Positions 7,653 to 62,263 of a stretch of DNA of 64,000 nucleotides are shown here, one piece after another. The notes under the pieces were generated by a model that saw only the letters and a list, made by a program, of their open reading frames with translations, did not search any database and was not told the DNA's origin. Within the stretch, counting starts at the first letter, position 1. Each line of letters begins with the position of its first letter. A program made the position numbers and the translations under genes. Source of the stretch: a virus (lineage: Duplodnaviria; Caudoviricetes); the IMG/VR virus record IMGVR_UViG_3300012667_001143, positions 1 through 64,000 of that record; one strand, written 5' to 3'.

Positions 7653-8444
7653 ATGTTTGAACAAATCTCAAATGACGAAAACCAATTCTATATCTCTGGG
7701 CAACCATTGATTGGTGTTGAGAGCGCAGAAATCTCATACTCTCATTCCTCAAACATATTGAAGCCGCTTGGTTTTGGAATTGGATTTACAGTTGTTTCTG
7801 GACCCCAGCAGCAAACAGTATCGATATCTCAGAATATGATACATTCTGGCGGATTGATTAATTATACTGGTTCAAACAATATAAGCGGCAGTATCAATTA
7901 TAATGGAAATAACTATGGATTTCAAAGCGGTTACTTAACTAATTATTTAGTCAATTGTGCTGTTGGATCTATCCCAAAAATAACAAGCAATGTCACCGTT
8001 TATGATACTATGGTTACTGGCACAAAAAACGCGAGTGGTTCTGTTCCAGTTCCAACTGTTTATGTTCCAACACAAGGATCTATATCTTTAACTTGTGATA
8101 ATAGTACAACAAATAGAGTTGTAGGATTTGATTATTCAATTAAAATAGATAGAAGGCCAATTTATTCAATAGGCTCTATACTTCCAAAAGAAATAGTAAC
8201 AATGCCAGTTATTGAGTATTCTGCCAGTGTTCAGATAGATGTTGACGATGCATTTTTATCAGATAGCACTGGCTTTTTATCAGCGAGGCAAAATAAAGGT
8301 GTATCGTTTACTATAAAATCAAGAGACAACGCGCAAACGCTTCAGACACTAATTATACCAAAAGCTTCTTTAATATCTGAATCTTTATCAAGCTCTGCTG
8401 ACGGAGGAGTGAAGTTAACACTAAACTATATTGGACACTCATGA
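7653..8444 (+). CDS. Virion structural protein, tail tube-like
   Basis: Directly follows the TMP; beta-rich; shares a VGFDYSIKIDRRPIYSIG / LQSFSLDLDLARTDLYGLG motif with 9391..10602. Confidence 0.55.
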   Translation: MFEQISNDENQFYISGQPLIGVESAEISYSHSSNILKPLGFGIGFTVVSGPQQQTVSISQNMIHSGGLINYTGSNNISGSINYNGNNYGFQSGYLTNYLVNCAVGSIPKITSNVTVYDTMVTGTKNASGSVPVPTVYVPTQGSISLTCDNSTTNRVVGFDYSIKIDRRPIYSIGSILPKEIVTMPVIEYSASVQIDVDDAFLSDSTGFLSARQNKGVSFTIKSRDNAQTLQTLIIPKASLISESLSSSADGGVKLTLNYIGHS

Positions 8445-9394
8445 GTACATTTTACGATAGAAGCAATAATATAGATATTGCCAGTGGAGATAGATTAACT
8501 GGTTTAACTTATAATCCTGTTTATGGATCTAGAGTTAGCTTTTCGTCTAAAGCCAACACGTATGAAACACAAAACGGATATTATAATTTAATACCTTTAT
8601 CTATCAACAGCTTAGATGCAAAGTTTGATCTTAGATTTGATTTGAATGAATCTGGAGCGCAAAAGTTAGTAGATTTTATAGAAAGTAAATCTGGCTGCAA
8701 TCTTTATGGATTTACAGACGCTTCGAATTTCTATAAAACAATCAGTGGTGTCACTGATAATTATGCAGTAAATCACATAAACAAAAACCACTACGAAGTC
8801 GCACTATCTATTGAAGTCAATCAGGCCCCGACTTTATTTAACTGGTCTGGAATGAGTTTTATAAACAGTGGATTAACACATTGGAGCGTTGGACAGCAGT
8901 ATAAAAAATACGACGTTATATACAGTGGCATCAGCAGTAATAAGCTAAACAACTATTACTACTGCTCTGGAGATCACACTTCATCGAGTAGCGCAGTTGA
9001 CGGTCCAACTGGATCTAATTCACAATGGACACAAAAGTTCTTTTTTGAGCCTGATGTTGGCTTGCAGAACGATGTAAATATCAAGGTTGATAAACTGGAA
9101 TTCAAAAATTCATTTACACAAAGAACAAAAACAAAATATCAGAAACACCTTGCGCCAATTAATTTAACATATAAGTTTTCTAACATACCAACTATTGAAG
9201 CTAAATCAATTATGCACTTTTTAGAGAACAAAGGTGGCTATAGAAGATTCCTTCATTCAATTCCTTCTGTTTATAACAGAGACAAAGTTTACTATTCTCC
9301 AAGTTGGACTCACTCATGGAAATACGAAAATTCCCATGATATAGAAGTTACGTTAATCGAAGACCCATTGGGTGTAATACCTACAGGAACATGA
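8441..9394 (+). CDS. Distal tail protein (lambda gpM/Dit-like), two tandem domains with a CBM-like insertion
   Basis: Both halves resemble gpM (AQKLVDFIESKSG; KLEFKNSFTQR..EAKSIMHFLENKGGYRRF). The middle segment WSVGQQYKKYDVIY..YYYC..W is CBM5/12-like. Confidence 0.7.
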   Translation: MSTFYDRSNNIDIASGDRLTGLTYNPVYGSRVSFSSKANTYETQNGYYNLIPLSINSLDAKFDLRFDLNESGAQKLVDFIESKSGCNLYGFTDASNFYKTISGVTDNYAVNHINKNHYEVALSIEVNQAPTLFNWSGMSFINSGLTHWSVGQQYKKYDVIYSGISSNKLNNYYYCSGDHTSSSSAVDGPTGSNSQWTQKFFFEPDVGLQNDVNIKVDKLEFKNSFTQRTKTKYQKHLAPINLTYKFSNIPTIEAKSIMHFLENKGGYRRFLHSIPSVYNRDKVYYSPSWTHSWKYENSHDIEVTLIEDPLGVIPTGT

Positions 9395-10602
9395 ATCGAC
9401 AAATACTAAAAAGCAACTCCGCGTTTGTCGCGATGGGTGATTCTCCAGCTTGGAAAACTGGACAAGAAACAGGTCGTCTTTTTCCATTGGTTCAGAATTG
9501 CAGTTTTTCAATTACAAATGAACGTCAAAAACTAAAGCAGATAGGCAGTCAGTCATATGCCGTAAATGATTTAGTTAGAGCGCCGAATGCTTCTTTGGAT
9601 TTAACTTATTATTTAAATCCTTATTGCAGTAATGAAATACTCGCTGGATTCAACGCTAGTGGAAGCGGATATGCGCCGTGTTTAAGTGGTCTAAAAAATA
9701 GAGACCAAAACATATATATCATAATAGATCCAGAGGATAGTAAAGATGCATTTGATGATTTTAAAAGAGATCCGTCGTCGGTGAATTTTAGCGGAATGCA
9801 AGCTTTGACTTTCGGCAATTGTTTCTTGAATAAGTATTCTGTATCTTTTGAATTAAACAGCGTTCCAACTGTAGATGTTGGATTTGCTGCTTCAAATGTT
9901 AGATTTGAATCTATCACTGGTGGCAGAATATCTATTCCAGCAATCAACAGTGTATCTGGAAACAACACAAACTCTGGTTCATTAAACTTAAGTGGATTAT
10001 ACTCTAGTTTGAGAAGCGGTTATATTTATAACGATCCAAGACTAAAAGACGAATTCAATGCTCCAGCAGCACTTTCTAATTCAAGCAGCTTCGCTTTACA
10101 GAACTTACAAGTCGGGGGTGTTGGATTAAATGCATCAGCTAATCCCATTTTACAAAGTTTCTCTTTGGACTTAGATTTAGCTAGAACAGATCTATATGGA
10201 CTTGGAAGCAATTATGTATATTCTAGAAAGTTAGAAATGCCAGTTAATGGATCTGTTTCTATTTCCTGTTTAGTTTCTGGAATTTCACAAGGAGAATTTC
10301 AATCTATTATAACAAATGAAAGCGGTTATAGTTTTGAAGTATCTTTCTGCGATCAAGATAAAATCGTCACTGGTTTTTATAAAATAGAAAACGCTAAACT
10401 AGAAAGCGTTAATTATAGTATGCAGGTAAATAATACTTTAAACTTCAATGCATCTTTTTCTTTTCAAGCAAATGAAACTGGTGGATTTTTCATGAAGAGA
10501 AGCATTGCTGATCAACCTTCGTGGAATAATATTAGCAATATATGGAGTTCGATAAATCTAAGATGGATTGATAATTTCTCTGGTTATACAGTTGATTTTT
10601 AA
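9391..10602 (+). CDS. Tail tube-like structural protein
   Basis: In the tail operon (ATGA overlap), beta-rich, similar motifs to 7653..8444. Confidence 0.55.
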   Translation: MNRQILKSNSAFVAMGDSPAWKTGQETGRLFPLVQNCSFSITNERQKLKQIGSQSYAVNDLVRAPNASLDLTYYLNPYCSNEILAGFNASGSGYAPCLSGLKNRDQNIYIIIDPEDSKDAFDDFKRDPSSVNFSGMQALTFGNCFLNKYSVSFELNSVPTVDVGFAASNVRFESITGGRISIPAINSVSGNNTNSGSLNLSGLYSSLRSGYIYNDPRLKDEFNAPAALSNSSSFALQNLQVGGVGLNASANPILQSFSLDLDLARTDLYGLGSNYVYSRKLEMPVNGSVSISCLVSGISQGEFQSIITNESGYSFEVSFCDQDKIVTGFYKIENAKLESVNYSMQVNNTLNFNASFSFQANETGGFFMKRSIADQPSWNNISNIWSSINLRWIDNFSGYTVDF

Positions 10603-19401: not shown

Positions 19402-20274
19402 ATGAATGTACTTTTTATATCAGACTTTAACTTAAATCAAAATTCTGGTGGAGCGCAGGTCAGCAATAACGAAATAATTAAAAAGGGGATTGAGCTTGGA
19501 CATAATATTACTGTCCATAATTATGACTCGTCCCCATTAAATTTTATTTATAAATACGATCTAGTTATCAGCTCTAATTTGGAGGTTATTAATTACAAAT
19601 CTCCACATATTATTGATTTTATCATAAATCATGATAATCACGTTAGGCTTGAACATGACTCTTGTTATTATTTTGATAGAGAAACACGCAAAAAATTATT
19701 CACATCGAGTAAAATTAATTTCTTTTTATCTAACTTTCATATCGCTTTTTTTAGAGAATTATATGGAGACTATTTCACCAATGTAGAAATTGTATATGAT
19801 CCAGTAAATTGCTCAGCGATTTCTAATGAAACAAAAGAAAAAATATACGATATAACTTACGCTGGATTTTTGCATGAACTAAAGGGGTCCAATAATTTGT
19901 ACGAATTTGCTAAAGAAAATTCAAACCGACAGATTAATATTTTCGGCTGGTCCGAGAATGAAAGTATTATTCAAAGATTATCTTCTCTTGATAATGTAAC
20001 TTTTCATGGCAAAAAAAGTTATTCTGAAATTTTAGAAATATACTCTCAATCTAAATACATTTACCACAATCCAATTGTTAATGAGCCATTTTGCAGAATG
20101 GTGGCTGAAGCTATTTTATGTGGATGCAATTTTATAGGTGACAAAAGTAAAATAGGTAGTATTCAAGAATTTGAAAAAAATGGATATAATAAATTTGCAG
20201 AAAATTGTCAAAATGCCGCCAAAATTTTTTGGAATAAATTAACACAACATACAATATATGAACAATCCATTTGA
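19402..20274 (+). CDS. Glycosyltransferase (GT4-like)
   Basis: GGAQ N-terminal motif, YAGFLHELKG, NEPFCRMVAEAILCGC. Confidence 0.8.
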   Translation: MNVLFISDFNLNQNSGGAQVSNNEIIKKGIELGHNITVHNYDSSPLNFIYKYDLVISSNLEVINYKSPHIIDFIINHDNHVRLEHDSCYYFDRETRKKLFTSSKINFFLSNFHIAFFRELYGDYFTNVEIVYDPVNCSAISNETKEKIYDITYAGFLHELKGSNNLYEFAKENSNRQINIFGWSENESIIQRLSSLDNVTFHGKKSYSEILEIYSQSKYIYHNPIVNEPFCRMVAEAILCGCNFIGDKSKIGSIQEFEKNGYNKFAENCQNAAKIFWNKLTQHTIYEQSI

Positions 20275-22367: not shown

Positions 22368-22409
22368 TATTGAAAATACAAAACCTTAATTTATATTTAA
22401 ATAAATAAT

Positions 22410-22820
22410 ATGGAAAAAATATATTCTAAAATAGAGCCAGGTAAATTACTGCACTTTGTCCGTAGAAATAAAGAGGCTATTCTTCAAAGACAAGATTTAG
22501 TTGATCCAGAAAACTTTATTCAATGCTCTCATTTAAAACTTAATGCTGGTCAAACATTCAAGGCTCACAAGCATATTTGGAAACATCGAGCAATTAATAC
22601 TATAGCACAAGAATCATGGGTAGTTATTAGCGGTAGTGTAGAATGCTATTTTTATGATCTTGATGACTCATTATTAGAGATAATTACATTAAAAGCTGGA
22701 GATGCTTCATTTACTCTTGAAGGAGGTCATAATTATTTAATTCTTGAAGACGACACTGTTGTTTATGAATATAAAACTGGACCATACGAAGGTCAAGCCT
22801 TAGATAAAACTTTTATTTGA
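22410..22820 (+). CDS. WbuC-like cupin (sugar isomerase/epimerase)
   Basis: H-x-H..QESWVVISG..GGHNY..EYKTGPY. Confidence 0.75.
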   Translation: MEKIYSKIEPGKLLHFVRRNKEAILQRQDLVDPENFIQCSHLKLNAGQTFKAHKHIWKHRAINTIAQESWVVISGSVECYFYDLDDSLLEIITLKAGDASFTLEGGHNYLILEDDTVVYEYKTGPYEGQALDKTFI

Positions 22821-50863: not shown

Positions 50864-52023
50864 GCCATTTAATCGAAGAGTATTCTAAGAATTTAGGAGT
50901 TAAAATATCGAAGCCTCTTGTGTCCAAACATTTTTGGCCAATGGTTCCAGATAAATATGTTACTATTTGTGCAGACTCGCAAATTCCTTCTAAAAATTAC
51001 AAGCACTATAATCTTGTTATTAATTTAATTAAAGAGTCTCTTGCGAAGAGAGGCATTAAAATAATTCAAATAGGAACATCCAGCAGTTTGAATCTGCAAA
51101 ATGTAGATCAGCAGTTGTTTGATTTGCCATTTAAAAACATGGCTTATATTATTTCAAAATCAATGCTTCATATTGGCGTTGACAATGTTTTTTCTCATTA
51201 TGCCAGCTCGATTGAAACTCCAATGGTAACTATCTTTGGCAATGTTTACGAAACTGTGGCAAATGGATATTGGAGCAAAAATCAAATCAAGATAGAAGCT
51301 CCGTGGAAAGTAAAGCCATGTTTAAGCGCAAACGATTCGGAAGACACAATCAATAAAATCAATCCAGAAGAAATAGCAAAAAAAATACTCGATCAATTAA
51401 AAATTCAAAACAAGATCAATATAAAAACAAAATTCATCGGTCGGTTTTACGACAATCAAGTGATTGAGCTTGTTCCAGATTTCTTTTCGCCAATCGAAAA
51501 GATTAGAAATCAGCATGTATTCATTCGCCCCGATTATGGCTTTGACGAACCAAGCTTTATGAATTGGTGCAATTATCTGCAAAGTTATTCCATATTCGCG
51601 AATAAAGAATTAGATCTTCAGTTTTGCAGTCACTTTGCTTCAAAAATAAAAAACATTTCTTATATTTTGCATAAAGATTCGGCGGTGAGCTTGGATCATT
51701 TAGAAAAAATTCAAAACCTAAATATAGGAATCACTATCCTCTGCGAAAAAGAAGAGGATCTTCCAGAAATGAGAGAAAGGTATTTTGATTTTAGTGTCCA
51801 TCTTTATTACAAGCCAAATAAAAAAATACTCGGAGACGATATAAAATTCGATAATTTGTTTTTTAATTCCTCGAAAATCATTCTTTCTAAGGGAAATCAA
51901 TACTCTTCTAAATACCATTTTCTTAATCAACAAAAAGATGTTGACAAAAACTTTAATTTAGAAGATAATGATGTCTTATTGGAAGAATTAGAACATTTTT
52001 ATATTTATGAGCGAACAAAATAA
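50860..52023 (+). CDS. GT9 (heptosyltransferase-like) domain protein
   Basis: SKNYKHY..IIQIG..AYIISKSMLHIGVDNVFSHYAS. Confidence 0.7.
   Translation: MSHLIEEYSKNLGVKISKPLVSKHFWPMVPDKYVTICADSQIPSKNYKHYNLVINLIKESLAKRGIKIIQIGTSSSLNLQNVDQQLFDLPFKNMAYIISKSMLHIGVDNVFSHYASSIETPMVTIFGNVYETVANGYWSKNQIKIEAPWKVKPCLSANDSEDTINKINPEEIAKKILDQLKIQNKINIKTKFIGRFYDNQVIELVPDFFSPIEKIRNQHVFIRPDYGFDEPSFMNWCNYLQSYSIFANKELDLQFCSHFASKIKNISYILHKDSAVSLDHLEKIQNLNIGITILCEKEEDLPEMRERYFDFSVHLYYKPNKKILGDDIKFDNLFFNSSKIILSKGNQYSSKYHFLNQQKDVDKNFNLEDNDVLLEELEHFYIYERTK
51941..51969 (+). promoter_or_regulatory. sigma70-type promoter
   Basis: TTGACA-17 nt-GATAAT upstream of 52007. Confidence 0.55.
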
Positions 52024-52849
52024 TCAAGAAGAAGCCGATCCACAGGTCGAAGATTCGAGCGAAACACTGAAGCCTTATCAAAAGTATCGTCGAAACGATA
52101 TCGGCTTAATTGATTCTGTGAATTACGTATTCAATGATGATGGTTCTGTTGATTGGAGAGCTATGATCAAGCCAGAGTTTCTTTACCCTAACAAAGATTG
52201 GTTCGAGCTTCGTAAGCTTGCCGTTCCAGCTTCTATAGAGGGTCTAGAAGACAAGCAGCTCCTAATCATGCTTGGTGGTATTAAAGAACTCGCAAAGCTC
52301 CGTGGCTTTCATTCTGTAAGCTACGATGTTCGCAACGAGCGTGAAAATTATGTTACTGCAAAATGCACAATTGAATGGATCGGTAATTATGAATCAGATC
52401 GCAAAATAGTTGTTTATGAAGACGTAGCGAATGCCACAGCATCAAATACAGATGATTTCTGCTTGAAGTTCTTGGAGAGTATTGCCTGCAATCGTGCATT
52501 TGTTCGATGCGTTAGAAACTTCTTGAATATCCATATTGTCGGAGCTGATGAAATTGATAAGTCAAAGAATCGCGTTGCTGAACCTATTGAAACTATTACG
52601 TCAAACGCTCTTCCTATTTCAGCACAGGGAACTCTTGAAAAAGCTGTTCATGAAAAGCTTAAGCTTGCAGATTTCGAAGCTTTTAAAGTTTACCTCAGAA
52701 CCTTATGGAAGAAGGCTCAAGAAACAGAAGATTCTTCGACCTTGGCTCTTCTTCAAGAAGCTAAAGATTGGAAGCAATTCAAGGATGTGTCGGCAAAATC
52801 AGCTCGCGTATTGTTGAAGATTGTAAATGAAAATACAAAGGATAACTAA
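52007..52849 (+). CDS. Rad52/Sak-like single-strand annealing protein (tentative)
   Basis: GIKELAKLRG..VTAKCTI..A.A.N..SIACNRAFVRCVRNFLNI..DEI. Confidence 0.55.
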   Translation: MSEQNNQEEADPQVEDSSETLKPYQKYRRNDIGLIDSVNYVFNDDGSVDWRAMIKPEFLYPNKDWFELRKLAVPASIEGLEDKQLLIMLGGIKELAKLRGFHSVSYDVRNERENYVTAKCTIEWIGNYESDRKIVVYEDVANATASNTDDFCLKFLESIACNRAFVRCVRNFLNIHIVGADEIDKSKNRVAEPIETITSNALPISAQGTLEKAVHEKLKLADFEAFKVYLRTLWKKAQETEDSSTLALLQEAKDWKQFKDVSAKSARVLLKIVNENTKDN

Positions 52850-53285
52850 TCCTACGGATTTTTGTAGGTTAATCGATGACTTGAGTGAGTTGTTCTCAGA
52901 AGAGGATTCTCACTCAGGTCACACCCTGCTTCGTCACAATGCAGAAACAATCAAAGCCTCTTTTGGTCATGCTCAATTATTGAATTGGGATTTGTTTGTT
53001 TGGGCTTGCGAGAACGGTGGTAAATTCGACTCAGCTATTATGTTCTTTAATGAAAAGTCTCCAAAGTTTGGGGCGAGAATCTTTTCAGAATTTTTATGGT
53101 TATCAAAGAATCCAAAAGCTGGATATAAACTCTTTAGCGCTGCTGTAAAATTCGCTAGACAAAATAAGTTCGATTATATAAGCATGTCAACGGTGACATC
53201 TCATCCTAAGCACGAAAAAATTAAATCATTCTATCAAAAAATGGGGTTTTTAAAAGACTCCGAAACTTACATATCAAAACTATGA
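52827..53285 (+). CDS. GNAT-family acetyltransferase
   Basis: AGYKLFSAAVKFAR..FYQKMGF. Confidence 0.7.
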   Translation: MKIQRITNPTDFCRLIDDLSELFSEEDSHSGHTLLRHNAETIKASFGHAQLLNWDLFVWACENGGKFDSAIMFFNEKSPKFGARIFSEFLWLSKNPKAGYKLFSAAVKFARQNKFDYISMSTVTSHPKHEKIKSFYQKMGFLKDSETYISKL

Positions 53286-53443
53286 ACCAAAGAAAAGCAA
53301 AAGAAATTAGATCAATTATTAATCCATCAGATCCTATCGGCAAGAGAAACTATCGTAGAGCTAAAAAGCGCTACGCTAAGTTATCGGCAGATGCAAAGCC
53401 TTTGTTTATTAAGTATCTTCGAGACATGATGAATCCATCATAA
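53282..53443 (+). CDS. 53-aa basic protein absent from the ORF track
   Basis: ATGA overlap with the GNAT stop; MNQRKAKEIRSIINPSDPIGKRNYRRAKKRYAKLSADAKPLFIKYLRDMMNPS. Confidence 0.65.
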   Translation: MNQRKAKEIRSIINPSDPIGKRNYRRAKKRYAKLSADAKPLFIKYLRDMMNPS

Positions 53444-54616
53444 TGTTGTTTTATATATTTTGTAGGAGCTTGAAATCGGCGCTCCACTAACATATAAAAA
53501 ATAATCATTCGCTACCTGGCCAACTGAGTAAATCAGTTGGCCAGTGTTTGTTATAGTGGACTCTAATAAAGTCTGAGGATTATTTAAAACAAGCTTTAAC
53601 TCTGAAGATATATAAGAATCTGTCCCTGTTTTTATTTGAGATGTATATAAAATAGTATGACAAGATCCACTAGGTATTGTATCAAGTATAGTACTTTGCG
53701 GAGAAGGAAGAGTAACAACTCCTGTTAAAAGAGAAAAATCTACAGATTCTGTGCCATTATTTATTTTAAATAAGTTTGTCTCTAAAAGAGTTTGAGGGTT
53801 TCTATCAGAGATTCCTGTAAATACTTTTGGGCCAAATTTTAAATGATTACCAGATCCAAATACAGAATATGGAACCACAGTGAAGTAATAATCTGTATCG
53901 TATTCAAGACCAATTGGTTTAATAATTACAGTGTCAATATCTTCATAATCCTTTACTGTTTGAGTATATAAAAAGTAAGGGTGATTTGCTGGATTTAATT
54001 CTAAAGAATTGAATGGCTCTATATCATTTTCTGTAGATGCGTATATATCATATTTGATTATGTCAATATAATTCAATGAGTTATCCAGCTGTACATTAAC
54101 TAATATCTGGTCTAGTTGTTGTATGTTTTGGTATACAACTAATCCTTCGGCTGGATCTGCTCCATATACAGGAGGAGTATAAAGTAAAGTTGCTGATCCA
54201 TCATATATAGTAGTAACTCCAGTATTTATTTGTGGAATATTGGCATAAAAATAAAACTCTGAAACATTTTTTGTTCCATCGTAAGCGGAGATAGTTGTTC
54301 TCACACCAAAATCTTTTTTATAAGATCCAAAAATACTGGCGTTTTCTATTTCTGTAAGCGTAAGGCTTCTACTTGTTGTTCCAGATTTATAGCCAGAAAA
54401 CGCTACGCTTCCATCTATATTCAAGATATCAAAGCATACTGAATCTGCCAATGGATTGCTTATAAAATCAGAATCAGAAACTATTAAATTTCCATTCATA
54501 TCCAATAAAGACAAAGAAAAAGTAACGTCTTTTTTTAGATGAACTCCACTGCCAGTATAAACTGCTCCTGTTAAATTGCCAGTATCTGGATTATAAACTG
54601 TTTCAAATTCGTACAT
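53438..54616 (-). CDS. Virion tail-tip associated protein (FN3-like domain)
   Basis: Follows gpJ; YDIYAS..LEYDTDYYFTVVPYSVFGSG. Confidence 0.6.
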   Translation of the reverse strand: MYEFETVYNPDTGNLTGAVYTGSGVHLKKDVTFSLSLLDMNGNLIVSDSDFISNPLADSVCFDILNIDGSVAFSGYKSGTTSRSLTLTEIENASIFGSYKKDFGVRTTISAYDGTKNVSEFYFYANIPQINTGVTTIYDGSATLLYTPPVYGADPAEGLVVYQNIQQLDQILVNVQLDNSLNYIDIIKYDIYASTENDIEPFNSLELNPANHPYFLYTQTVKDYEDIDTVIIKPIGLEYDTDYYFTVVPYSVFGSGNHLKFGPKVFTGISDRNPQTLLETNLFKINNGTESVDFSLLTGVVTLPSPQSTILDTIPSGSCHTILYTSQIKTGTDSYISSELKLVLNNPQTLLESTITNTGQLIYSVGQVANDYFLYVSGAPISSSYKIYKTTL

Positions 54617-54619: not shown

Positions 54620-57600
54620 TTAAGAAATTGTAATGTTAGTTGTATAGACGGCAGAAAATTGGCGTTCCGAACCTGTTGGCGCTCTAAATATTCCAGATTT
54701 AGATGGATTTGATGTTAAGAATCTACCAGCATCTGATGGAGAAGCTTGAACAGAAAGATTCCAAGTTCCATCTTGATCTGTAAATCCTGTTGTGTCAAAA
54801 CTTGTTGAAGGCACTTCAAATTCTTTTTCTATGTAATAGTTAGAATTAGATATTTTGACTATATAAGAAGAAGCATTATCAACGCCACTCCAACTGCCAG
54901 TGAATCCAAAAACAGAACCAGCTTTAAAAGCGAAATTAGTTATAACTGGACTGCTTAATTGAGTCAAGTTAACAATAGGATTTTGGGTATTTGGCGAGGT
55001 TGCATAAAAAGTATCAGGAAGATAATCTGAAGTTATGTGCTTTTCTATTGATTCAAATTTACCAGTATCAAATTTTGAACAGTATACGCTGTATTCGTTT
55101 TGATTTTCTTCCCTAATGCTTATTATCTTGTATATTTGATCGCTCGCATTTTTCTTTTGAATGCGGTAAACGCCACCTTCAGGAATCATTGGAAGAAGAT
55201 TGATATTAATATCGTTTTCGTCTATAAATAATTCACTGCCATAATTTTGATTTTGATGACCTGTTACATTAAAAACAGTAATTTGTGGATTGTTTACAAC
55301 ATTAATTTCCTCGTTAAGAATGCCTTTGTAAGCATCAAACTCTACATCTATACGCCCACTTATTGCTGCGCTTGGAGTGGTTCTTTTATCGCTTGCAGCG
55401 GAACTATAACGATAGCCAGTTATTAATTCTGCGCCAGAAACTCTCACAGAAGTAATGTCACTAAATCCAGTATCGCATATTACTTTATTATAAGTATCAC
55501 TATCTATTCCGTATTCGCCAGTAGAAAAAACAAAACCAGTAGCTCCAGTATTGTAATAGCAAAATATCTTTTGTAAAGATGGATAATTTGTACCAGTATA
55601 CAAAGGAAACTGAACTGGTAATTTATTTATGTTTCCACTATTGTATCCTTGTGTGTATCTTGAGAAATAATATCTTCCAGTGAGTATATCGTCACTGCTA
55701 TTAATTAATCCAGTAGTGACATCAAAATAAGGAACTCTATTTCTATTTGAATACGCAATTTGTTCTATGTCTTCGCTTGAAGCAAAACCTGTTGGTGTAT
55801 AAACAGTAACTTTTCCAGTGAAAGATCCACTGTCATACAAACCATCAATTCTTAGACTTTTGTTATTTAAATCAACATCTAAAATTCTACCGTAATTATT
55901 CAAAAGACTTTTCATTTCGTCTTCCACAATAATTAAGTCGCCAGGTCGGCAAAGCAAAGCATCCAAGCCAGCCATAAACTCAACACTTTGGTTTTCTCTG
56001 ATTGTTTGATAAATCAAATGCTGCCCAATTCTTCTAGCCATAGCTCTAGAAGTAACACCGAGCGTGTTAATATCTGTTTTAAAAATACCTCTATTTCTTA
56101 TGTCTGTTTCGTCTTGGATGTATTCTATTTTTGTTTGATAGTTATCAAATCTATCCAAGTAAGCGACTTCCACAGTATTAAACTGTTGATCTCTACGATT
56201 GTTAATGTAATTAAATAGTCCGTCTTTGACGTTTGAATTTGTGAAGATAGCTATTGGATCTCTTGGTCTGTCATCCAAAAAGTGAATTTCTGAATTGCTG
56301 AAAAAGACGCTTCCTCTAAACAACGATGCTACGATATTAATAGCATCAAATATTTTAGTCTGCTCTTTAAACATTATATTACAAGAGTATCTTGGTTCTA
56401 AACCTCCGACACCATCAGAAACTCCAACGAAATATCCTTGTTCATCTACTGCATCACAAAATCTGCCAATTTTATAAAGCTCCCATTTATTGATTTGAGA
56501 CTCCTCTATATAAGATCCTAAGCCATATCTTTTGCTAGTTAAAAGATCATAAATAATCCAAGCTGGATTATCTGTCCAACCTTCTTCGAATGTTCCATTC
56601 CAATCTCCATCATAAATTAAATCTTGGGTTGTGTATTCGGTCGCTGATTTTATATATCTTTTGTCTTTGCCATTATCAAGAGGTTTGTAATTGCTAGGGA
56701 TTTTGATTTTTTTCAATCTGCAATCATATGTTCTCTCTGGAACAGATCCAAAAGTTCTTGCATCAATTTTTACTCCAACAACGCTAGAAAACGGATATGA
56801 TAAATTGTTTTCAATTATTTCTGTGACTTTGTAAAGAGATGCTTCTTTGCTCAATAGAATAGAATTCGTTTCCGCAGATAGTTTAGTTATTTTTATGTAT
56901 CTTTTAACAACAGATGGATCTTCATTGTTATTGAGTTTTGGCAATTTAAATGGCTTGTTCAACTCTGATTCTTCAAATTGACCACCGCTTATATCTCTAA
57001 CAGATTGCAAATCGCTCATTGGAGAATCTGGACTGCCAAAATCAATAAGCATTTGTCCCTCGACCATTCCTAAAATAGCAAACTTTTTCGTAACCTTGTC
57101 GGAGATTTTACCATTTGTGGTTTTCCCATATTCAACCTCAATCTCTAAAATTGCTGGCAATCTATCTTGAGTGCTTCGATTTTCATTCGGAAAGTCAGTA
57201 TGAGCCGTGTCTCTCAAAGAAGAAATAGCTAATGTAAAGAATACAGAAGAAACATTAGAGTTTTCAATAGTATGGGTTATTGGTATAGCGAGTTCATCAT
57301 ATATTTCTTCGTTATCGCTATTCCAATCTGAATAGTTAACATTTGTTTGAGTTCTTAAGTCTTGAGAACCTTCTGATTCAACAAGATCTTGATTCAATTC
57401 TGGATTGTTAGCTCCTCTTGTTTTATAACTACCTTGAATTCTTCTAACTCTTCCACTTGGAACAAAAGGCCCAATTAAAGATGTTCCATAATCAAAATCA
57501 ATATAAATATTTTTAAAATCATTGAGCGTCTCTTGGTATTCATCGCCATTTCTAAAATCGCAAGCAATATTTGAAAAGTTGTATTTAGAAGCGGTTGGAC

Positions 57601-58819
57601 CATCACTTGAATCTTCGACTCCCTTTTTGAAAATCAATTGTACGTTTTTTTCAGAGAAAGCTGACACGCTTTTTAATATCTGCCTATAATAATGATAGTC
57701 ATCGCTAATAATTGAGCTGGCTCTTTGAGTTCCAATTTTTTGTATAAACTCTTCTGTTCTAACTTCTGTTTTAAGCTCTATGACTAAGCATCCATACATT
57801 TGATTAAGATACACAGAATCACTGCTATCTAAAATAGGAATTAAAAATCTATGTATTTGATTTTGTCCAATAAATTGACTGAAATTTTTAATTTGAAAAG
57901 AGACTGGATTTGCTTTAAAATTTTTATTTTCTTGAAGACCATTGTCTAAAGCTACGGAATCTTGTGAAGAAGATCCGAACTTCATGACAACATAAACGCT
58001 ATTGGTTTTTTTCCAATCAAAAGACTTGTCTGCTAATGAACTTTGAAAATCAGATATCTTTGTTTGTATTGTAGAATTAATTGATTGTTGATTTGTCGCA
58101 GCTTTCGAATTTAAAGAATTTTGCAAGCTTCTTAATATTGAAGATTCTGAAAATAAGCTTATTGATGGGTTTTCATAGTGAACCTCCATCAGTAATTTAG
58201 TATCAATGGTTTTAAAGTATTTGGGAGAAGCAGGTTTATTTAAATCTCCAATCCACTGCCAACCATTTCCACTCGCACCAAGTTTTAAAGGTTTTTCGAC
58301 AATAGGTGAATAATAAGATTCAGTTTTCGCTCCAACGACTAACGCATTAGAAGCTAAAAGTCTAGCTTCTTGGAATAACTTAGTATTTTTAATTTTATCA
58401 CCAAGTTCTATGGTTTTTCCATCCTCTCCTCTGTGAAAGTCTAGAATATCTTTTCCATCTATTGGATCTCTATAAATATTTCCTAGTTGTTGTAGTCTAT
58501 CTGAAATATTTATAAGCCCAATTACATCGCTATCATTAATTGGGTTTTGAGAACTGACAGAAGTTTGCTCTACAGGGGTGTTATCTAAATAAACGCCTTG
58601 CAATATACTAGACATTCCATTTTCACCAAGTATTTGATTGTTTTGATTAACAAGTCCTTCTATCGGACCATCAGAAATCAAATCAACAATCTCCGCAACG
58701 CTGTAAGAGTTTAATAGCTTATAAGCTCCAAGTTTTGGGGGTTTGAGAATAGGTGGTTGTGGCTTTGGTTTATTTTTACCACCTCCCTGAAATAAGTTTT
58801 TATTTATTAAGTGTTTCAT
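54620..58819 (-). CDS. Tail tip / host specificity protein (lambda gpJ-like)
   Basis: DLISDGPIEGL, YLDNTPV, YPFSSVVG, WTDNPAWIIYDLLT..RYGLG, EPRYSCN, PGDLI; C-terminal FN3. Confidence 0.92.
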   Translation of the reverse strand: MKHLINKNLFQGGGKNKPKPQPPILKPPKLGAYKLLNSYSVAEIVDLISDGPIEGLVNQNNQILGENGMSSILQGVYLDNTPVEQTSVSSQNPINDSDVIGLINISDRLQQLGNIYRDPIDGKDILDFHRGEDGKTIELGDKIKNTKLFQEARLLASNALVVGAKTESYYSPIVEKPLKLGASGNGWQWIGDLNKPASPKYFKTIDTKLLMEVHYENPSISLFSESSILRSLQNSLNSKAATNQQSINSTIQTKISDFQSSLADKSFDWKKTNSVYVVMKFGSSSQDSVALDNGLQENKNFKANPVSFQIKNFSQFIGQNQIHRFLIPILDSSDSVYLNQMYGCLVIELKTEVRTEEFIQKIGTQRASSIISDDYHYYRQILKSVSAFSEKNVQLIFKKGVEDSSDGPTASKYNFSNIACDFRNGDEYQETLNDFKNIYIDFDYGTSLIGPFVPSGRVRRIQGSYKTRGANNPELNQDLVESEGSQDLRTQTNVNYSDWNSDNEEIYDELAIPITHTIENSNVSSVFFTLAISSLRDTAHTDFPNENRSTQDRLPAILEIEVEYGKTTNGKISDKVTKKFAILGMVEGQMLIDFGSPDSPMSDLQSVRDISGGQFEESELNKPFKLPKLNNNEDPSVVKRYIKITKLSAETNSILLSKEASLYKVTEIIENNLSYPFSSVVGVKIDARTFGSVPERTYDCRLKKIKIPSNYKPLDNGKDKRYIKSATEYTTQDLIYDGDWNGTFEEGWTDNPAWIIYDLLTSKRYGLGSYIEESQINKWELYKIGRFCDAVDEQGYFVGVSDGVGGLEPRYSCNIMFKEQTKIFDAINIVASLFRGSVFFSNSEIHFLDDRPRDPIAIFTNSNVKDGLFNYINNRRDQQFNTVEVAYLDRFDNYQTKIEYIQDETDIRNRGIFKTDINTLGVTSRAMARRIGQHLIYQTIRENQSVEFMAGLDALLCRPGDLIIVEDEMKSLLNNYGRILDVDLNNKSLRIDGLYDSGSFTGKVTVYTPTGFASSEDIEQIAYSNRNRVPYFDVTTGLINSSDDILTGRYYFSRYTQGYNSGNINKLPVQFPLYTGTNYPSLQKIFCYYNTGATGFVFSTGEYGIDSDTYNKVICDTGFSDITSVRVSGAELITGYRYSSAASDKRTTPSAAISGRIDVEFDAYKGILNEEINVVNNPQITVFNVTGHQNQNYGSELFIDENDININLLPMIPEGGVYRIQKKNASDQIYKIISIREENQNEYSVYCSKFDTGKFESIEKHITSDYLPDTFYATSPNTQNPIVNLTQLSSPVITNFAFKAGSVFGFTGSWSGVDNASSYIVKISNSNYYIEKEFEVPSTSFDTTGFTDQDGTWNLSVQASPSDAGRFLTSNPSKSGIFRAPTGSERQFSAVYTTNITIS

Positions 58820-59503: not shown

Positions 59504-59910
59504 TTTAGTTTACCCTTAATCCTTTCTAATATACTTACATCATAATCTTTGTTTTGTGGTTCATAAATATTAAATTTGCGAGTATTTATCGAATAAATAA
59601 CAAAAGACAAGCAGCAAGCCTCTGACATTTTAACGTCGAATTCAGACTCAGTTTCATTTCCAAGAATATGACTGTGAAAAACAGAAACTAAAGAATAGCT
59701 ATTTTTAAATTTTAAATAACTCGCTGGATCAATAGAAAAGAAAGATTTCGTATCTGCTGCTTGATTTTTTTCAATAGTAGCTACGAAATCTTTTGATTCT
59801 TCATCATATCCAATAAACCCACATATTTCATTTATTGAGTTTCTGTTAGAGTGATTAATCAAAAAATCTTTAATTGCCGCAAATGATTTGTTTTTTATTT
59901 TATCTTCCAT
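59500..59910 (-). CDS. Tail assembly protein K, JAB/MPN domain only
   Basis: NEICG..FHSH......SEFD; no NlpC/P60 domain. Confidence 0.85.
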   Translation of the reverse strand: MEDKIKNKSFAAIKDFLINHSNRNSINEICGFIGYDEESKDFVATIEKNQAADTKSFFSIDPASYLKFKNSYSLVSVFHSHILGNETESEFDVKMSEACCLSFVIYSINTRKFNIYEPQNKDYDVSILERIKGKLK

Positions 59911-62263
59911 ATCTATCTGTTCCAGGGAACCCTCCAAATGGTAAAGAATTTTGCGATGTTTGAATTAATGTTGTTTCAAATTGCGTGATGTAATTTGTTT
60001 CTTGCAAATCTATACTTCCAGTATATTCTCCACTTAAGTTAATTTTTAAATTCTGATTATTAGAAGCTGATACACTGTATGAAGATGTTCCAGTAATGTC
60101 CATATCCCACCAAGCAAATAATCCAGTTTTTAAAATTGGTTTGTTTTGACTTACTCCTGTAAATTCTGCGTATGTTCTAGGAATTGGGAACTTAATTTCT
60201 TTATTGTCATCTTCCCTATTAAAGAATTCTTTTCTGGCATCAATACCATCGAATCCAGTCCATATAGCAGTTGCTCCTAATTTAATATTACTAGTTAATT
60301 TAATATTAGAATATACTCCAGAATTTCTAGGATTTGGTGTGAATGTATCGCCGCTTGAAAACTGCCAATCATTGATTCCGAACTTAAGACTTGTTGTAGA
60401 TCCAGTGTAACTTGGATTTTTAAACAAAAAGAATTCTCCAGAAAACTTTAATTGTGGATTTCTAGGTTTTAATATGTATTCTGCAAAAGTAGAGCTATCC
60501 GCTCCGTACATTTTTATATAACCTTCTGGAAAAGAAGTTACGCCTGTTCCGCTGGTTTGACCACCGAATGCCTCTAAATAAAACGGTTGATTTGTTTGGA
60601 AATCCCAAGGCATAGAAATAGACCTATTCACTGTTGTATATGAAGGGGTTGGCGCTCCAGAATATTGTCTTGTCGCAAAATCTAATACTAAATTACCTCC
60701 ACTTGCATAAAGATTCAAACCGCTATACTGACAATTTGTTTTTACATTGTGAAAAATATTAAGCAATTGATCGTTTCTAGTAACCCCATTTGGAAAACTA
60801 AAATATGAAGCGATATGTAAATCTTTCGAAGTTGCTATTCCGCTTGATAAAAAATCATCGTTATAAACAGCTAAACCAGAAGGCTCAAATATACATACTT
60901 CGCCAAGACCAGCATTGGTATCAGAACTTATACCACTAATAATTATTTGATCTATATATGAAGCGTTGAACACATTTGTACTTCTAGATCCACTATTATA
61001 CACTACAGATTCTAAGCTACCCTCTACATCTCCATTAAGAAGTAATTTTATAGATGCGTCTCCAAAATTGTTGTTTCCTTGCCTATCGTATAAATCGATT
61101 CTATTTATTAATCTTGGGCGATCCCAAGTGAATTGGATATAAGGATTTGCGGCTCCAGAACTAACCCATGAGTAAGCAGTATCAACGTTCTTAACGGATA
61201 CGCCAGTTAATCCATCTACAACGTTTCTGAAAGAAGAACCCGATAATACACTAGAACCAGTAATAGAAGCTTCTGAAGCAATGTTATTGCTATTGTATCT
61301 TGATTTGTGGGAGAAATTTATATAAGAATTTGTTATTGGGTAATTAGTAGTCTCTGAAGTTTGCAGTTCTCCGTTTGAAAATCTTTTTTTGCAACCATCT
61401 AATTTTTTATTGCATCCGTCTTTTAACCAGAATGTTTCATTATTATCTGGGGCATTATATTCTGTAGAGACATGTCCGCTTTGAGAGACATACCATATTT
61501 TTGCGGGCCTACTTTTTTCTTTGGTACCTGGTCTTGGATTTATTGTAATTTTATTATTAAAACGAAACGCTGGAGTTCCGCTCTCATAATAAATACCAGT
61601 ATCCCACTCACCAGTGCTGAAGATTGTATTCCATTTATTTTCAGAATCATTATTCAACTTTAAGGTTTGACCATATTCGGTTTCTATTGGAAGACCTTCA
61701 TAATTGCAACCATTTCCTCTGTAATACCATGAACAGTATCTAGCTATAATCAATCTATTATTGACTTCAAAGTTTTCTAAATCAAGAGGAGATGAAAGTT
61801 CGAATTCGACAAAAACTTTATTTTCTGCGGTTTTTTGACTGATAACAAAAGTATCTAAACTTAATTCTGCTGATGAGTCTGCTTGTCCCCACGGATTACC
61901 ACCATCAAAATTAATATCATCTAAGTATTTTACAAAAGTTCTTTTTCTGATTAATTTGCCAAATTGAAAATCCTTATTGTTTAATAAAGCTTGAGTGATA
62001 GCGTAATCTTTGTTGGATATTCTAATCTTTGGTCTTGGTAGTTGATTGCTTGCATTGACTTCAAAACCTTCAGATTCTACAGGCAGACTTCCATATTTTT
62101 TACCTTGCCATGAAATCTCTCCTTCAAATATAGCTCCTCCATGAAACATCAAGATAGCATCTGGTTTATCAATAGTATTGAAATGCAACTGAAATAACTC
62201 TACTATAGCAGTAGGCTGCAAATCAGTTAAACTTCTAGCAATTTTATCTTGTCCTTGTCCCAT
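59900..62263 (-). CDS. Minor tail protein L with large carbohydrate-binding-like insertions
   Basis: IVELFQL..PVESEGFE..PRPKIRISN, YCSWYYRG.GC..C.K.L.GC.KRF, terminal LPFGGFPG. Confidence 0.9.
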   Translation of the reverse strand: MGQGQDKIARSLTDLQPTAIVELFQLHFNTIDKPDAILMFHGGAIFEGEISWQGKKYGSLPVESEGFEVNASNQLPRPKIRISNKDYAITQALLNNKDFQFGKLIRKRTFVKYLDDINFDGGNPWGQADSSAELSLDTFVISQKTAENKVFVEFELSSPLDLENFEVNNRLIIARYCSWYYRGNGCNYEGLPIETEYGQTLKLNNDSENKWNTIFSTGEWDTGIYYESGTPAFRFNNKITINPRPGTKEKSRPAKIWYVSQSGHVSTEYNAPDNNETFWLKDGCNKKLDGCKKRFSNGELQTSETTNYPITNSYINFSHKSRYNSNNIASEASITGSSVLSGSSFRNVVDGLTGVSVKNVDTAYSWVSSGAANPYIQFTWDRPRLINRIDLYDRQGNNNFGDASIKLLLNGDVEGSLESVVYNSGSRSTNVFNASYIDQIIISGISSDTNAGLGEVCIFEPSGLAVYNDDFLSSGIATSKDLHIASYFSFPNGVTRNDQLLNIFHNVKTNCQYSGLNLYASGGNLVLDFATRQYSGAPTPSYTTVNRSISMPWDFQTNQPFYLEAFGGQTSGTGVTSFPEGYIKMYGADSSTFAEYILKPRNPQLKFSGEFFLFKNPSYTGSTTSLKFGINDWQFSSGDTFTPNPRNSGVYSNIKLTSNIKLGATAIWTGFDGIDARKEFFNREDDNKEIKFPIPRTYAEFTGVSQNKPILKTGLFAWWDMDITGTSSYSVSASNNQNLKINLSGEYTGSIDLQETNYITQFETTLIQTSQNSLPFGGFPGTDRYGR

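What the first reader, a model, noticed from the sequence alone, without database searches (positions are those of the whole stretch)
7653..62263. Ser/Thr-Gly enrichment in exposed virion proteins: candidate sequon for a phage-encoded virion glycosylation system
Seen (hand counts, approximate; fraction of Gly preceded by S or T): 8441 Dit 11/20, 9391 16/30, 47080 5/9, 53438 14/27, gpL insertion 23/40, versus DnaB 5/33 and RecA 3/30. In gpJ the dipeptides cluster in the non-conserved insert (~55255-55835, e.g. YNTGATGFVFSTGEYG) and the C-terminal FN3. The fibre at 44705 is saturated with them. The same window encodes at least 6 GTs, two Gmd enzymes, and amino-, acetyl-, methyl- and sulfotransferases. 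Established: some actinophages and giant viruses glycosylate virions with their own GTs, and Ser-Gly is the acceptor motif of animal proteoglycans. Inference: unrelated surface domains converged on [S/T]G because it is the O-glycosylation acceptor, giving a dense, possibly fucosylated or sulfated glycan coat. Caveat: beta-rich, S/T/G-rich proteins inflate this dipeptide to some extent.
Basis: partly seen in the sequence, partly recalled or inferred. Interest (0 to 1): 0.85.

Follow-up and report, generated by a model that had tools for sequence, protein, structure and literature searches.

The report
Ser/Thr-Gly excess on phage tail add-ons
The outer, lineage-specific domains of this uncultured aquatic phage's tail proteins carry two to three times too many Ser-Gly and Thr-Gly pairs, a real and conserved signal that may mark attachment sites for a sugar coat made by the phage's own enzymes, although no chemistry shows this and a purely structural reading is nearly as likely.

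Summary
After composition shuffling, [S/T]-Gly is 2-3 times over-represented in six tail proteins (z 4-6). The reverse order (Gly-[S/T]) is not enriched, and replication and metabolic proteins of the same phage are not enriched (O/E 1.08).

The excess lies only in lineage-specific add-on domains: 148 observed against 60.7 expected (z 13). The conserved lambda-like cores of the same polypeptides are depleted: 6 against 15.8.

The excess holds across a large aquatic clade. Orthologue families pool at O/E 2.0-3.0, and the S/T and the Gly of a pair are kept more often than other S/T or Gly. Six phages without matches to the two commonest glycosyltransferase families, including low-GC Flavobacterium phage 11b and marine HTVC008M, show about 1.1-1.2.

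The clade always carries soluble glycan genes: Gmd in 9 of 10 long relatives, and a GT4-like + GT9-like pair that stays adjacent down to 31% identity and is fused once.

The link to glycosylation is still inference. The sites sit at strand/loop junctions, as a turn motif would. The DUF285 proteins lack the excess, and no relative known to lack the glycosyltransferases could be found.

Verdict: O-glycosylation acceptor about 0.4; structural or chemical-stability motif about 0.35. This scan noted the same motif earlier on other aquatic phages.

The parts
8441..9034 (+). N-terminal extension (aa 1-198) of the gpM-like minor tail protein; enriched in [ST]G
   Evidence: 10 observed vs 3.2 expected, z 4.5. 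The conserved Phage_min_tail part (aa 199-317) has 1 vs 0.8. 70 orthologues pool at O/E 2.96.
9391..10602 (+). Duplicated tail-tube-fold protein (like T5 tail-tip and pb6 proteins); enriched in [ST]G
   Evidence: 16 vs 5.4, z 5.2. AF2 pLDDT 79.5; Foldseek hits 8xan, 7qg9_G and pb6 at E 1e-13 to 1e-10. 108 homologues have median O/E 2.30.
7653..8444 (+). Tail protein directly after the tape measure gene; weakly enriched
   Evidence: 9 vs 5.4, p 0.065. 60 orthologues pool at 1.28.
44705..47083 (-). Tail fibre; enriched, partly through internal repeats
   Evidence: 46 vs 22.4, z 6.0. 16 sites fall in 5 repeat motifs such as SNPSG[FY]ITG.
47080..47415 (-). Small fibre-associated protein (PHROG families include one annotated 'L-shaped tail fibre protein assembly')
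   Evidence: 5 vs 1.6, z 3.2; phrog_1084 and phrog_3304.
53438..54616 (-). Protein encoded just downstream of gpJ, no family match; enriched
   Evidence: 14 vs 5.4, z 4.3. No Pfam, PHROG or phage-collection match.
54620..55849 (-). C-terminal add-on of gpJ (aa 991-1399); the strongest enrichment
   Evidence: 21 vs 6.7, z 6.4, [ND]G 0.48. 119 homologues pool at 2.92 with 21 conserved [ST]G columns.
55850..58819 (-). Conserved lambda-like core of gpJ (aa 1-990); depleted in [ST]G
   Evidence: 3 vs 9.1, z -2.2. The N-terminal parts of the homologues pool at 0.58. Phage-tail_3 domain at aa 819-969.
59900..61648 (-). Insertion/extension of gpL (aa 206-787, includes DUF7402); enriched
   Evidence: 27 vs 10.5, z 5.9. 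DUF7402 at aa 327-459.
61649..62263 (-). Conserved gpL domain (aa 1-205); no [ST]G
   Evidence: 0 vs 1.7. Phage_tail_L E 5e-41.
19402..26136 (+). Glycan gene cluster A: GT1-family, GT25, FkbM methyltransferase, GT11, hexapeptide acetyltransferase, short DegT ORF, two Gmd-family dehydratases
   Evidence: Pfam and NCBIfam. No hydrophobic segments. Gmd present in 9 of 10 long relatives.
48956..53285 (+). Glycan gene cluster B, between the fibre and gpJ operons: 635-aa GT4-like enzyme with a Cys4 motif, 387-aa GT9-like partner, 280-aa unknown, acetyltransferase
   Evidence: phrog_2170 E 2e-20 and phrog_1249. GT9 E 1.5e-6. Pair conserved in G001, G004, G005 and G007, adjacent at 31% identity and fused in P0386. 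Best fold match is chlorovirus NY-2A GT 3oy2.
63240..63905 (+). Sulfotransferase-family gene
   Evidence: Sulfotransfer_2 E 5e-16. Orthologue at 51% identity in G006.

Best explanation
A hydrophobic-[Ser/Thr]-Gly loop motif has been planted and kept in the outward-facing, lineage-specific add-on domains of the tail-tip, collar/tube-like and fibre proteins. In a relative it also appears in a putative head cement protein. The most likely reason is that it is the acceptor site for cytoplasmic O-glycosylation of folded virion proteins by the phage's own soluble glycosyltransferases, using sugars supplied by its Gmd-family, aminotransferase, acetyl-, methyl- and perhaps sulfo-transferase genes.

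Shown: the motif statistics, their confinement to add-on domains, their conservation across the clade, and the clade-wide presence of soluble glycan genes.

Inferred: that the glycan enzymes act on proteins, that [S/T]-Gly is where they act, and which enzyme makes the first link. The conserved GT4-like + GT9-like pair is my candidate, without direct support. The dipeptide cannot be sufficient on its own, because non-virion proteins carry it at the chance rate. Recognition would therefore need the loop context, as it does for autotransporter heptosyltransferases.
For: (1) Pooled add-on domains have 148 vs 60.7 (O/E 2.44, z 13). The conserved cores of the same proteins have 6 vs 15.8 (0.38, z -2.9) and non-virion proteins 1.08.

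(2) The signal is directional and specific to S/T. GS and GT are about 1.1. At [ST]G columns with Gly retained, S/T occupy 90-94% and N+D 2-4%. This does not fit a generic Asx/ST turn.

(3) The pair is under selection as a unit. In gpJ C-parts, S/T before Gly is kept at 0.75 against 0.47 for other S/T, and Gly after S/T at 0.72 against 0.46. There is also turnover: 63 alignment columns of the 9391 family carry the pair in some member.

(4) It is not a DNA motif. Pro-Gly and Ala-Gly, which share the NCT-GG sequence, are depleted.

(5) Six phages without GT1/GT2-family matches show O/E about 1.1-1.2, with one very small protein at z 3.7 and the rest at or below 2.7: lambda, Almagne, H4907, Va_p41, 11b and HTVC008M.

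(6) Glycan genes are clade-wide and have no membrane segments. No ThyA-type hydroxymethylase is present while ThyX is, which argues against glycosylated DNA bases.

(7) The best fold match of the 635-aa enzyme is a chlorovirus glycosyltransferase. Chloroviruses glycosylate their capsid with their own enzymes (my own knowledge).

(8) Precedents: mycobacteriophage virion glycosylation (as cited in PMC12619734) and loop Ser heptosylation of beta-helices by TibC (PMC4358343).
Against: - There is no chemical evidence of any modification.
- Many sites are fixed in position, with a column-specific preference for S or for T. They sit at strand/loop junctions after a hydrophobic residue, which is what a turn motif looks like.
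- The S/T-rich DUF285 proteins, probably the most distal parts, are not enriched (1.23). The TMP, expected to lie inside the tail tube, is mildly enriched (1.48).
- The putative major capsid protein of a complete relative has 1 vs 4.0.
- In a distant relative the glycosyltransferase pair follows the replication genes, not tail genes.
- Two related lineages (P0079/L024 and P0090) lack the excess in their 8441 and 9391 orthologues. Their glycosyltransferase status is unknown because the contigs end too early.
- All clade members examined carry glycan genes, so the association is confounded with phylogeny.
Confidence: 0.4

Rival explanations
1. Structural or chemical-stability motif, unrelated to the glycan genes. 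[S/T]-Gly is the turn former of the beta-hairpins in these add-on domains (an ST-turn or type I turn plus G1-bulge type). This clade prefers it over Asn-Gly and Asp-Gly because those pairs deamidate or isomerise in long-lived extracellular particles. On this reading the glycan genes serve another purpose, such as changing the host surface.
For: - The sites lie in loops or at strand edges of the 9391 model.
- A hydrophobic residue is enriched at -1 (z 3.2).
- Sites in the gpJ C-part are spaced about 10-20 residues apart, roughly one per loop.
- Many columns are fixed and specific for S or for T.
- [ND]G is 0.69 in add-on parts and 0.27 in the TMP, against 1.40 in control virion proteins. NG is about 0.5 in three orthologue families.
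- If the total of [NDST]G were as in the controls (1.25) and all fell on S/T, an O/E of about 1.7-2.0 would follow. This is my own arithmetic.
Against: - The excess of [ST]G (+87) far exceeds the deficit of [ND]G (-12).
- NG/DG avoidance is strongest in the TMP, where [ST]G is only 1.48, so the two signals are uncoupled.
- Asn-His, also labile, is enriched.
- Marine HTVC008M and cold-water 11b, equally exposed to long waits in water, do not show the pattern.
- This reading does not explain the depletion of [ST]G in the conserved cores (0.38).
- No homology among the add-on domains was detected that could explain a shared habit.
Confidence: 0.35
2. The motif marks another modification or interaction of the outer domains. 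Candidates are phosphorylation (an APH-family phosphotransferase gene lies at 38174-39241), another enzyme-made mark, or a shared contact motif for an assembly factor.
For: The window also encodes an APH-family phosphotransferase, a SET-domain methyltransferase inside the fibre operon, two acetyltransferases and a sulfotransferase. The selection on S/T plus Gly as a unit is shown, but its chemistry is not.
Against: No known phage system of this kind. SET enzymes act on lysine. No feature links these genes to the motif more closely than the glycosyltransferases.
Confidence: 0.08
3. Inherited habit of a hidden domain superfamily. The add-on domains are remote homologues drawn from a pool of fibre and decoration modules exchanged among aquatic phages, and the [S/T]-Gly turns are inherited rather than selected for in each domain.
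For: Tail-fibre modules are exchanged widely among phages (general knowledge). The fibre and the 42381 protein share a segment (E 7e-12). The scan noted the same motif on other large aquatic phages (unchecked notes).
Against: BLAST finds no similarity among the J C-part, the L insertion, the M extension, 9391 and 53438. 9391 has an old tail-tube fold, yet it is enriched. Ongoing turnover of sites within families points to continuing selection rather than mere inheritance.
Confidence: 0.1

Closest known systems
Mycobacteriophage virion O-glycosylation by phage-encoded glycosyltransferases (Freeman et al. 2023, Cell Host Microbe 31:1216; known here only through its citation in PMC12619734; the paper itself was not held)
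   Same: A tailed phage that encodes its own soluble glycosyltransferases. The proposed target is its own virion proteins, modified in the host cytoplasm.
   Different: There the glycans sit on C-terminal ends of the capsid and tail-tube subunits. Here the candidate sites are scattered loop dipeptides in tail-tip, collar and fibre add-on domains. The putative capsid protein of a relative is not enriched. The host lineage is different, the glycan toolkit is much larger, and nothing here is shown chemically.
Bacterial autotransporter heptosyltransferases TibC/AAH acting on TibA and AIDA-I (PMC4358343)
   Same: A soluble cytoplasmic GT-B enzyme that modifies many serines in loops of a folded beta-rich surface protein. 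The family is related to GT9, and TibC uses a Cys4 'iron finger' to grip its substrate. The window has a GT9-like gene, and its GT4-like partner has a conserved Cys4 motif.
   Different: The GT9-like protein here has no Cys4 finger and only a weak match to half of the GT9 domain. The Cys4 motif lies in the GT4-like partner. No heptose-nucleotide genes were seen. Thr is used as often as Ser.
Chlorovirus (PBCV-1 / NY-2A) capsid glycosylation by virus-encoded enzymes
   Same: The virus encodes Gmd-family sugar-nucleotide enzymes and soluble glycosyltransferases. The best structural match of the 635-aa enzyme is the NY-2A glycosyltransferase 3oy2 (E 7e-19). Methylated sugars are plausible because an FkbM-family gene is present.
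   Different: Chlorovirus glycans are N-linked to Asn of the major capsid protein (my own knowledge). That is a eukaryotic virus. Here an O-linkage to tail proteins is proposed.
Animal proteoglycan Ser-Gly xylosylation sequon
   Same: The Ser-Gly dipeptide.
   Different: There are no acidic flanks. There is no GT14 xylosyltransferase or UDP-xylose synthase among the Pfam hits. Thr-Gly is as enriched as Ser-Gly. This is a resemblance in letters only.
ST-turn / type I turn plus G1 beta-bulge hairpin loops (a general structural motif of proteins)
   Same: S/T followed by Gly at strand/loop junctions after a hydrophobic strand residue.
   Different: In such turns Asn and Asp usually alternate with Ser and Thr. 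Here they make up only 2-4% at these columns. The frequency is far above that in other phages' beta-rich tail proteins.

Membership tests
Phage virion glycosylation system (mycobacteriophage type) | Phage-encoded glycosyltransferases | tested here: met
   GT1-family, GT25, GT11, GT4-like and GT9-like genes, conserved in relatives.
Phage virion glycosylation system (mycobacteriophage type) | Glycans demonstrated on virion proteins | not testable with these tools
   Needs mass spectrometry or glycan staining of particles or of co-expressed proteins.
Phage virion glycosylation system (mycobacteriophage type) | Acceptor at the C-terminal ends of capsid and tail-tube subunits | tested here: inconclusive
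   The contig lacks the head genes. In relative G007 the putative capsid protein has 1 vs 4.0 [ST]G, but its annotation rests on gene order only.
Bacterial autotransporter heptosyltransferases (BAHT: TibC/AAH) | Heptosyltransferase (GT9-related) catalytic domain | tested here: inconclusive
   50860-52023 matches only the C-terminal half of GT9 (E 1.5e-6, 28 bits). PDB heptosyltransferases match at E 0.03.
Bacterial autotransporter heptosyltransferases (BAHT: TibC/AAH) | Cys4 iron finger inserted in the catalytic domain | tested here: not met
   The five cysteines of the GT9-like protein form no CxxC pairs. A conserved CxxC...CxxC motif is present in the GT4-like partner instead.
Bacterial autotransporter heptosyltransferases (BAHT: TibC/AAH) | Enzyme gene next to its substrate gene | tested here: inconclusive
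   It is adjacent to tail genes in this window but follows replication genes in a 31%-identical relative.
Proteoglycan-type Ser-Gly xylosylation | GT14 xylosyltransferase and a UDP-xylose supply | tested here: not met
   No such Pfam family among the 59 window proteins. The two SDR enzymes are of the Gmd family.
Proteoglycan-type Ser-Gly xylosylation | Acidic residues flanking Ser-Gly | tested here: not met
   D/E are at or below background at positions -6 to +7 around 102 sites.
Phage DNA base glycosylation (T4 type) | Hydroxymethylpyrimidine synthesis by a ThyA-family hydroxymethylase | tested here: not met
   No PF00303 match in G000, G004, G005 or G007. ThyX is present in three of them.
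Membrane-linked O-antigen/capsule pathway (Wzx/Wzy or ABC type) | Membrane-embedded initiating transferase, flippase, polymerase or ligase | tested here: not met
   No hydrophobic segments in any window protein other than the TMP, gpI and one weak segment in PolIII, and no such Pfam families. Use of host membrane enzymes cannot be excluded.
Generic Asx/ST-turn structural motif | Interchange of S/T with N/D at the turn position | tested here: not met
   N+D are 2-4% and S/T 90-94% at [ST]G columns with Gly retained, in three families at 34-60% identity.
Generic Asx/ST-turn structural motif | Position at strand/loop junctions | tested here: met
   DSSP of the 9391 model puts nearly all 16 sites in loops or within two residues of a strand end. 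Hydrophobic residue at -1, z 3.2.

The most novel reading that the evidence does not exclude
An abundant clade of roughly 135-kb aquatic siphoviruses coats the outer add-on domains of its tail tip, collar, fibres and perhaps head cement protein with a phage-built glycan. More than 1500 gpJ homologues of this clade are present in public metagenomes. The glycan would be made of 6-deoxyhexose or amino sugars, methylated, acetylated and possibly sulfated. It would be attached at hydrophobic-[S/T]-Gly loops by soluble enzymes. The same dipeptide would be purged from the conserved core domains, where a glycan would block assembly. That would be a sequon-directed protein glycosylation system of a new kind in tailed phages, readable directly from sequence.
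Probability: 0.35. Interest if true: 0.8.

Novelty: new variant of a known kind. Interest (0 to 1): 0.62.

Why it matters
Virion glycosylation by tailed phages has been shown only for mycobacteriophages. If [S/T]-Gly is a readable acceptor signal, glycosylated phage surfaces could be predicted from metagenomes alone. That would explain why large aquatic phages carry glycan gene islands. It would also point to glycan shields or glycan-mediated adhesion as factors in host recognition, particle survival and grazing or immune evasion in natural waters.

If the structural reading is right, the finding still matters. It documents a clade-specific rule of loop design in virion proteins (Ser/Thr-Gly instead of Asn/Asp-Gly), with an internal contrast between old cores and new add-on domains, and this bears on how exposed proteins are made durable. 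Either reading can be tested with one co-expression and mass-spectrometry experiment.

Tried and rejected
- Chance or composition: rejected by within-protein shuffles.
The S/T-rich tail proteins of 11b and HTVC008M, and this phage's own DUF285 proteins, are at 0.8-1.6.
- Internal repeats: these explain only 16 of the fibre's 46 sites and none elsewhere.
- DNA-level motif or restriction avoidance: rejected for [ST]G, because Pro-Gly and Ala-Gly share the NCT-GG sequence and are depleted. CCNGG avoidance does explain the Pro-Gly deficit.
- Shared descent of the add-on domains: no BLAST similarity; remote homology was not excluded.
- An N-x-S/T sequon hidden in N-x-[ST]-G: Asn at -2 is only weakly enriched (z 2.2).
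- A relative without glycosyltransferases as a negative control: G006 has none in 85 kb, but the contig ends 3 kb after the 9391 orthologue and lacks gpJ and gpL as well, so it says nothing. The P0079 and P0090 contigs also end too early.
- Single-protein searches of IMG/VR and of cultured phages with 9391, 53438 and the fibre gave nothing useful.
- The gpJ search returned only the same clade, so it gave no outside control.
- The head proteins of G007 could not be named by PHROGs or Pfam.

Full report
WHAT THE WINDOW IS. The window is the first 64 kb of a 96.6-kb contig of an uncultured phage, GC about 35%, which CheckV rates 87% complete.
- It starts with a 2548-aa tape measure gene, followed by 7653-8444, a gpM-like gene (8441-9394) and 9391-10602.
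- 9391-10602 folds as a duplicated tail-tube domain. Its AF2 model has pLDDT 79.5, and the best Foldseek matches are the SH-Ab15497 major tail protein, a T5 tail-tip chain and pb6.
- The other tail-tip genes (gpL with a 580-aa insertion, gpK, gpI, a 1399-aa gpJ and 53438-54616) lie 50 kb away on the other strand, next to a fibre operon with two DUF285 leucine-rich-repeat genes.
- Between them lie nucleotide-metabolism and replication genes and two groups of glycan genes.
- Cluster A (19402-26136) holds GT1-family, GT25, FkbM methyltransferase, GT11, a hexapeptide acetyltransferase, a short DegT ORF and two Gmd-family dehydratases.
- Cluster B (48956-53285) holds a 635-aa glycosyltransferase, a GT9-like protein, an unknown protein and an acetyltransferase. 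It sits between the fibre and gpJ operons.
- A sulfotransferase gene follows gpL.
- The head genes are not on the contig.

Shuffling each protein 2000 times gives O/E 2.0-3.2 and z 3.2-6.0 for 8441, 9391, the fibre, 47080, 53438 and gpL. gpJ (1.54) and the tape measure protein (TMP, 1.49) give weaker signals, and 7653 gives none that is significant.
- Of all 400 dipeptides, TG and SG are among the four most enriched in virion proteins. GS and GT are at chance, and non-virion proteins are at chance.
- The signal is not a DNA motif. Pro-Gly and Ala-Gly share the NCT-GG sequence and are depleted.
- Repeats account for 16 of the fibre's 46 sites only.

THE SIGNAL LIES IN THE ADD-ON DOMAINS. Splitting proteins at the ends of their conserved Pfam domains gives a sharp contrast:
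- gpJ: residues 991-1399 have 21 vs 6.7; residues 1-990 have 3 vs 9.1.
- gpL: residues 206-787 have 27 vs 10.5; residues 1-205 have 0 vs 1.7.
- gpM-like: residues 1-198 have 10 vs 3.2; the conserved part has 1 vs 0.8.

Pooled values:
- add-on parts: 148 vs 60.7 (O/E 2.44, z 13)
- conserved cores plus gpI and gpK: 6 vs 15.8 (0.38, z -2.9)
- DUF285 proteins: 1.23
- TMP: 1.48
- non-virion proteins: 1.08

The add-on domains show no BLAST similarity to each other.

Around 102 sites outside the fibre, the only clear context is a hydrophobic residue at -1 (z 3.2). There is no acidic flank.

CONSERVATION ACROSS THE CLADE. The 9391 protein has 119 homologues. The 108 of full length have a median O/E of 2.30.
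- In 80 IMG/VR loci, the 8441 orthologues pool at 2.96, 9391 at 2.02 and 7653 at 1.28. Neighbouring non-structural genes mostly lie at about 0.4-1.4.
- 119 gpJ homologues have 0.58 in the core and 2.92 in the C-part.
- Some sites are fixed and others turn over. In the 9391 family 63 alignment columns carry the pair in some member, and six columns carry it in at least half.
- At these columns, with Gly retained, S/T fill 90-94% and Asn+Asp 2-4%.
- In gpJ C-parts the S/T before Gly and the Gly after S/T are kept far more often than other S/T or Gly: 0.75 against 0.47, and 0.72 against 0.46.
- Two lineages (L024/P0079 and P0090) have lost the excess in their 8441 and 9391 orthologues.

OUTSIDE CONTROLS. 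I tested virion proteins of lambda, Pseudomonas phage Almagne, Halomonas phage H4907, Vibrio phage Va_p41 and low-GC Flavobacterium phage 11b.
- They pool at 1.14 for [ST]G and 1.40 for [ND]G. Apart from the small lambda U protein (4 sites, z 3.7), no protein exceeds z 2.7.
- The marine, low-GC Pelagibacter phage HTVC008M gives about 1.2 in its large baseplate and fibre proteins (the pooling is my own arithmetic).
- Five of the six controls were searched for GT1- and GT2-family genes (Va_p41 was not). None has a match above threshold; HTVC008M has one sub-threshold GT2-like hit.
- So the excess is not a general property of beta-rich, S/T-rich tail proteins, of low GC content, or of life in water.

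THE GLYCAN GENES.
- Gmd is present in 9 of 10 long relatives, including two complete genomes of 134 and 140 kb.
- The 635-aa and 387-aa genes are adjacent in all four near-complete relatives, at 64-75% and 41-70% identity.
- The pair stays adjacent in relatives with only 31% identity and is fused in one protein, so the two work together.
- The 635-aa protein models as a GT-B enzyme with a further C-terminal domain (pLDDT 88). It has a conserved CxxC...CxxC motif. Its best structural match is the glycosyltransferase of chlorovirus NY-2A.
- None of the glycan proteins has a membrane segment.
- No ThyA-type hydroxymethylase is found in four genomes, while ThyX is present in three. This argues against glycosylated DNA bases.
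- In one distant relative the pair follows the DNA polymerase genes rather than tail genes.

WEIGHING THE READINGS. Several points favour an acceptor site:
- The excess is confined to outer add-on domains, and the cores are depleted.
- Only S/T are accepted before the Gly.
- The pair is under selection as a unit.
- Phages without these glycosyltransferase families lack the pattern.
- The clade has soluble glycan genes with no other obvious soluble acceptor.

Other points favour a structural or stability motif:
- The sites sit at strand/loop junctions.
- Columns prefer S or T specifically.
- Asn-Gly and Asp-Gly are avoided at the same time (0.69 in add-on parts, 0.27 in the TMP, against 1.40 in controls).

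That avoidance could account for part of the excess. It cannot account for all of it: the surplus of [ST]G is 87 pairs and the deficit of [ND]G is 12. The avoidance is also strongest where the [ST]G excess is weakest.

The unenriched DUF285 proteins and putative capsid protein, and the mildly enriched TMP, do not fit a simple 'coat on everything exposed'. The association with glycan genes is confounded with phylogeny, because no clade member known to lack them could be found.

I put the glycosylation-acceptor reading at about 0.4, the structural/stability reading at about 0.35, a hidden domain superfamily at about 0.1 and another modification at under 0.1.

COMPARISON WITH KNOWN SYSTEMS.
- The closest working analogues are mycobacteriophage virion glycosylation and the TibC/AAH heptosyltransferases, which modify loop serines of folded beta-helices.
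- Membership of the BAHT family fails on the Cys4 finger of the GT9-like enzyme.
- The proteoglycan comparison fails on enzyme family, sugar supply and flanking residues.

Earlier notes of this scan report the same Ser-Gly excess on other large aquatic phages with glycan islands. These are unchecked AI notes and I did not count them as evidence. They did prompt the HTVC008M control.

Noticed in passing
window 1-64000: CCNGG is strongly avoided: 17 sites against 53.6 expected (sd 7.8). All 17 are CCWGG; there is no CCCGG or CCGGG at all. This looks like restriction-site avoidance. It explains why the Pro-Gly dipeptide is depleted in both virion (0.22) and non-virion (0.43) proteins.
   Followed up: partly
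window 2-7651 (tape measure protein): Asn-Gly and Asp-Gly are almost absent from the tape measure protein: 7 against 26.3 expected, z -4.2, with NG alone at 2 against 15.1. These are the most deamidation- and isomerisation-prone pairs, so this may reflect selection for chemical durability.
   Followed up: partly
window 47425-47832 (- strand): A SET-domain (lysine methyltransferase family) gene sits inside the fibre operon, between 47810-48448 and the small fibre-associated gene 47080-47415. It may methylate a virion or a host protein.
   Followed up: no
window 48956-50863; alignment A2: The 635-aa glycosyltransferase family has a conserved CxxC...CxxC motif (around residues 270-300) inserted in the GT-B fold, and a conserved ~200-aa C-terminal domain. 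There are 313 cluster representatives at E < 1e-30. The partner GT9-like gene stays adjacent at 31% identity and is fused to it in P0386 (855 aa).
   Followed up: partly
window 2-10602 (+) versus 53438-62263 (-): The lambda-like tail-tip module is split. The tape measure and gpM-like genes lie on the + strand, while gpL, gpK, gpI and gpJ lie about 50 kb away on the - strand, with replication and glycan genes in between.
   Followed up: no
window 23418-24020: The DegT/aminotransferase ORF has only 200 residues and matches positions 165-237 of the 360-position Pfam model. It may be truncated or split, so an amino-sugar branch of the pathway is uncertain.
   Followed up: no
tail genes of the window: Ser/Thr codons before Gly end in T far more often than elsewhere: ACT+AGT+TCT are 76% against 47%, and TCA is 1% against 14%. 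This avoids A-GG, a Shine-Dalgarno-like sequence, at the codon junction.
   Followed up: no
L090:17374-20148 (relative of the P0090 lineage): The large subunit of ribonucleotide reductase in this relative has 924 residues and carries an intein with a LAGLIDADG endonuclease, which is absent from the window's 571-aa gene.
   Followed up: no
L093:9399-10034 and L093:10058-11200 (complete relative G007): A 211-aa protein just before the putative major capsid gene weakly matches the phage cement-protein family (E 0.02) and has 10 [ST]G against 4.2 expected. The putative capsid protein has 1 against 4.0.
   Followed up: partly
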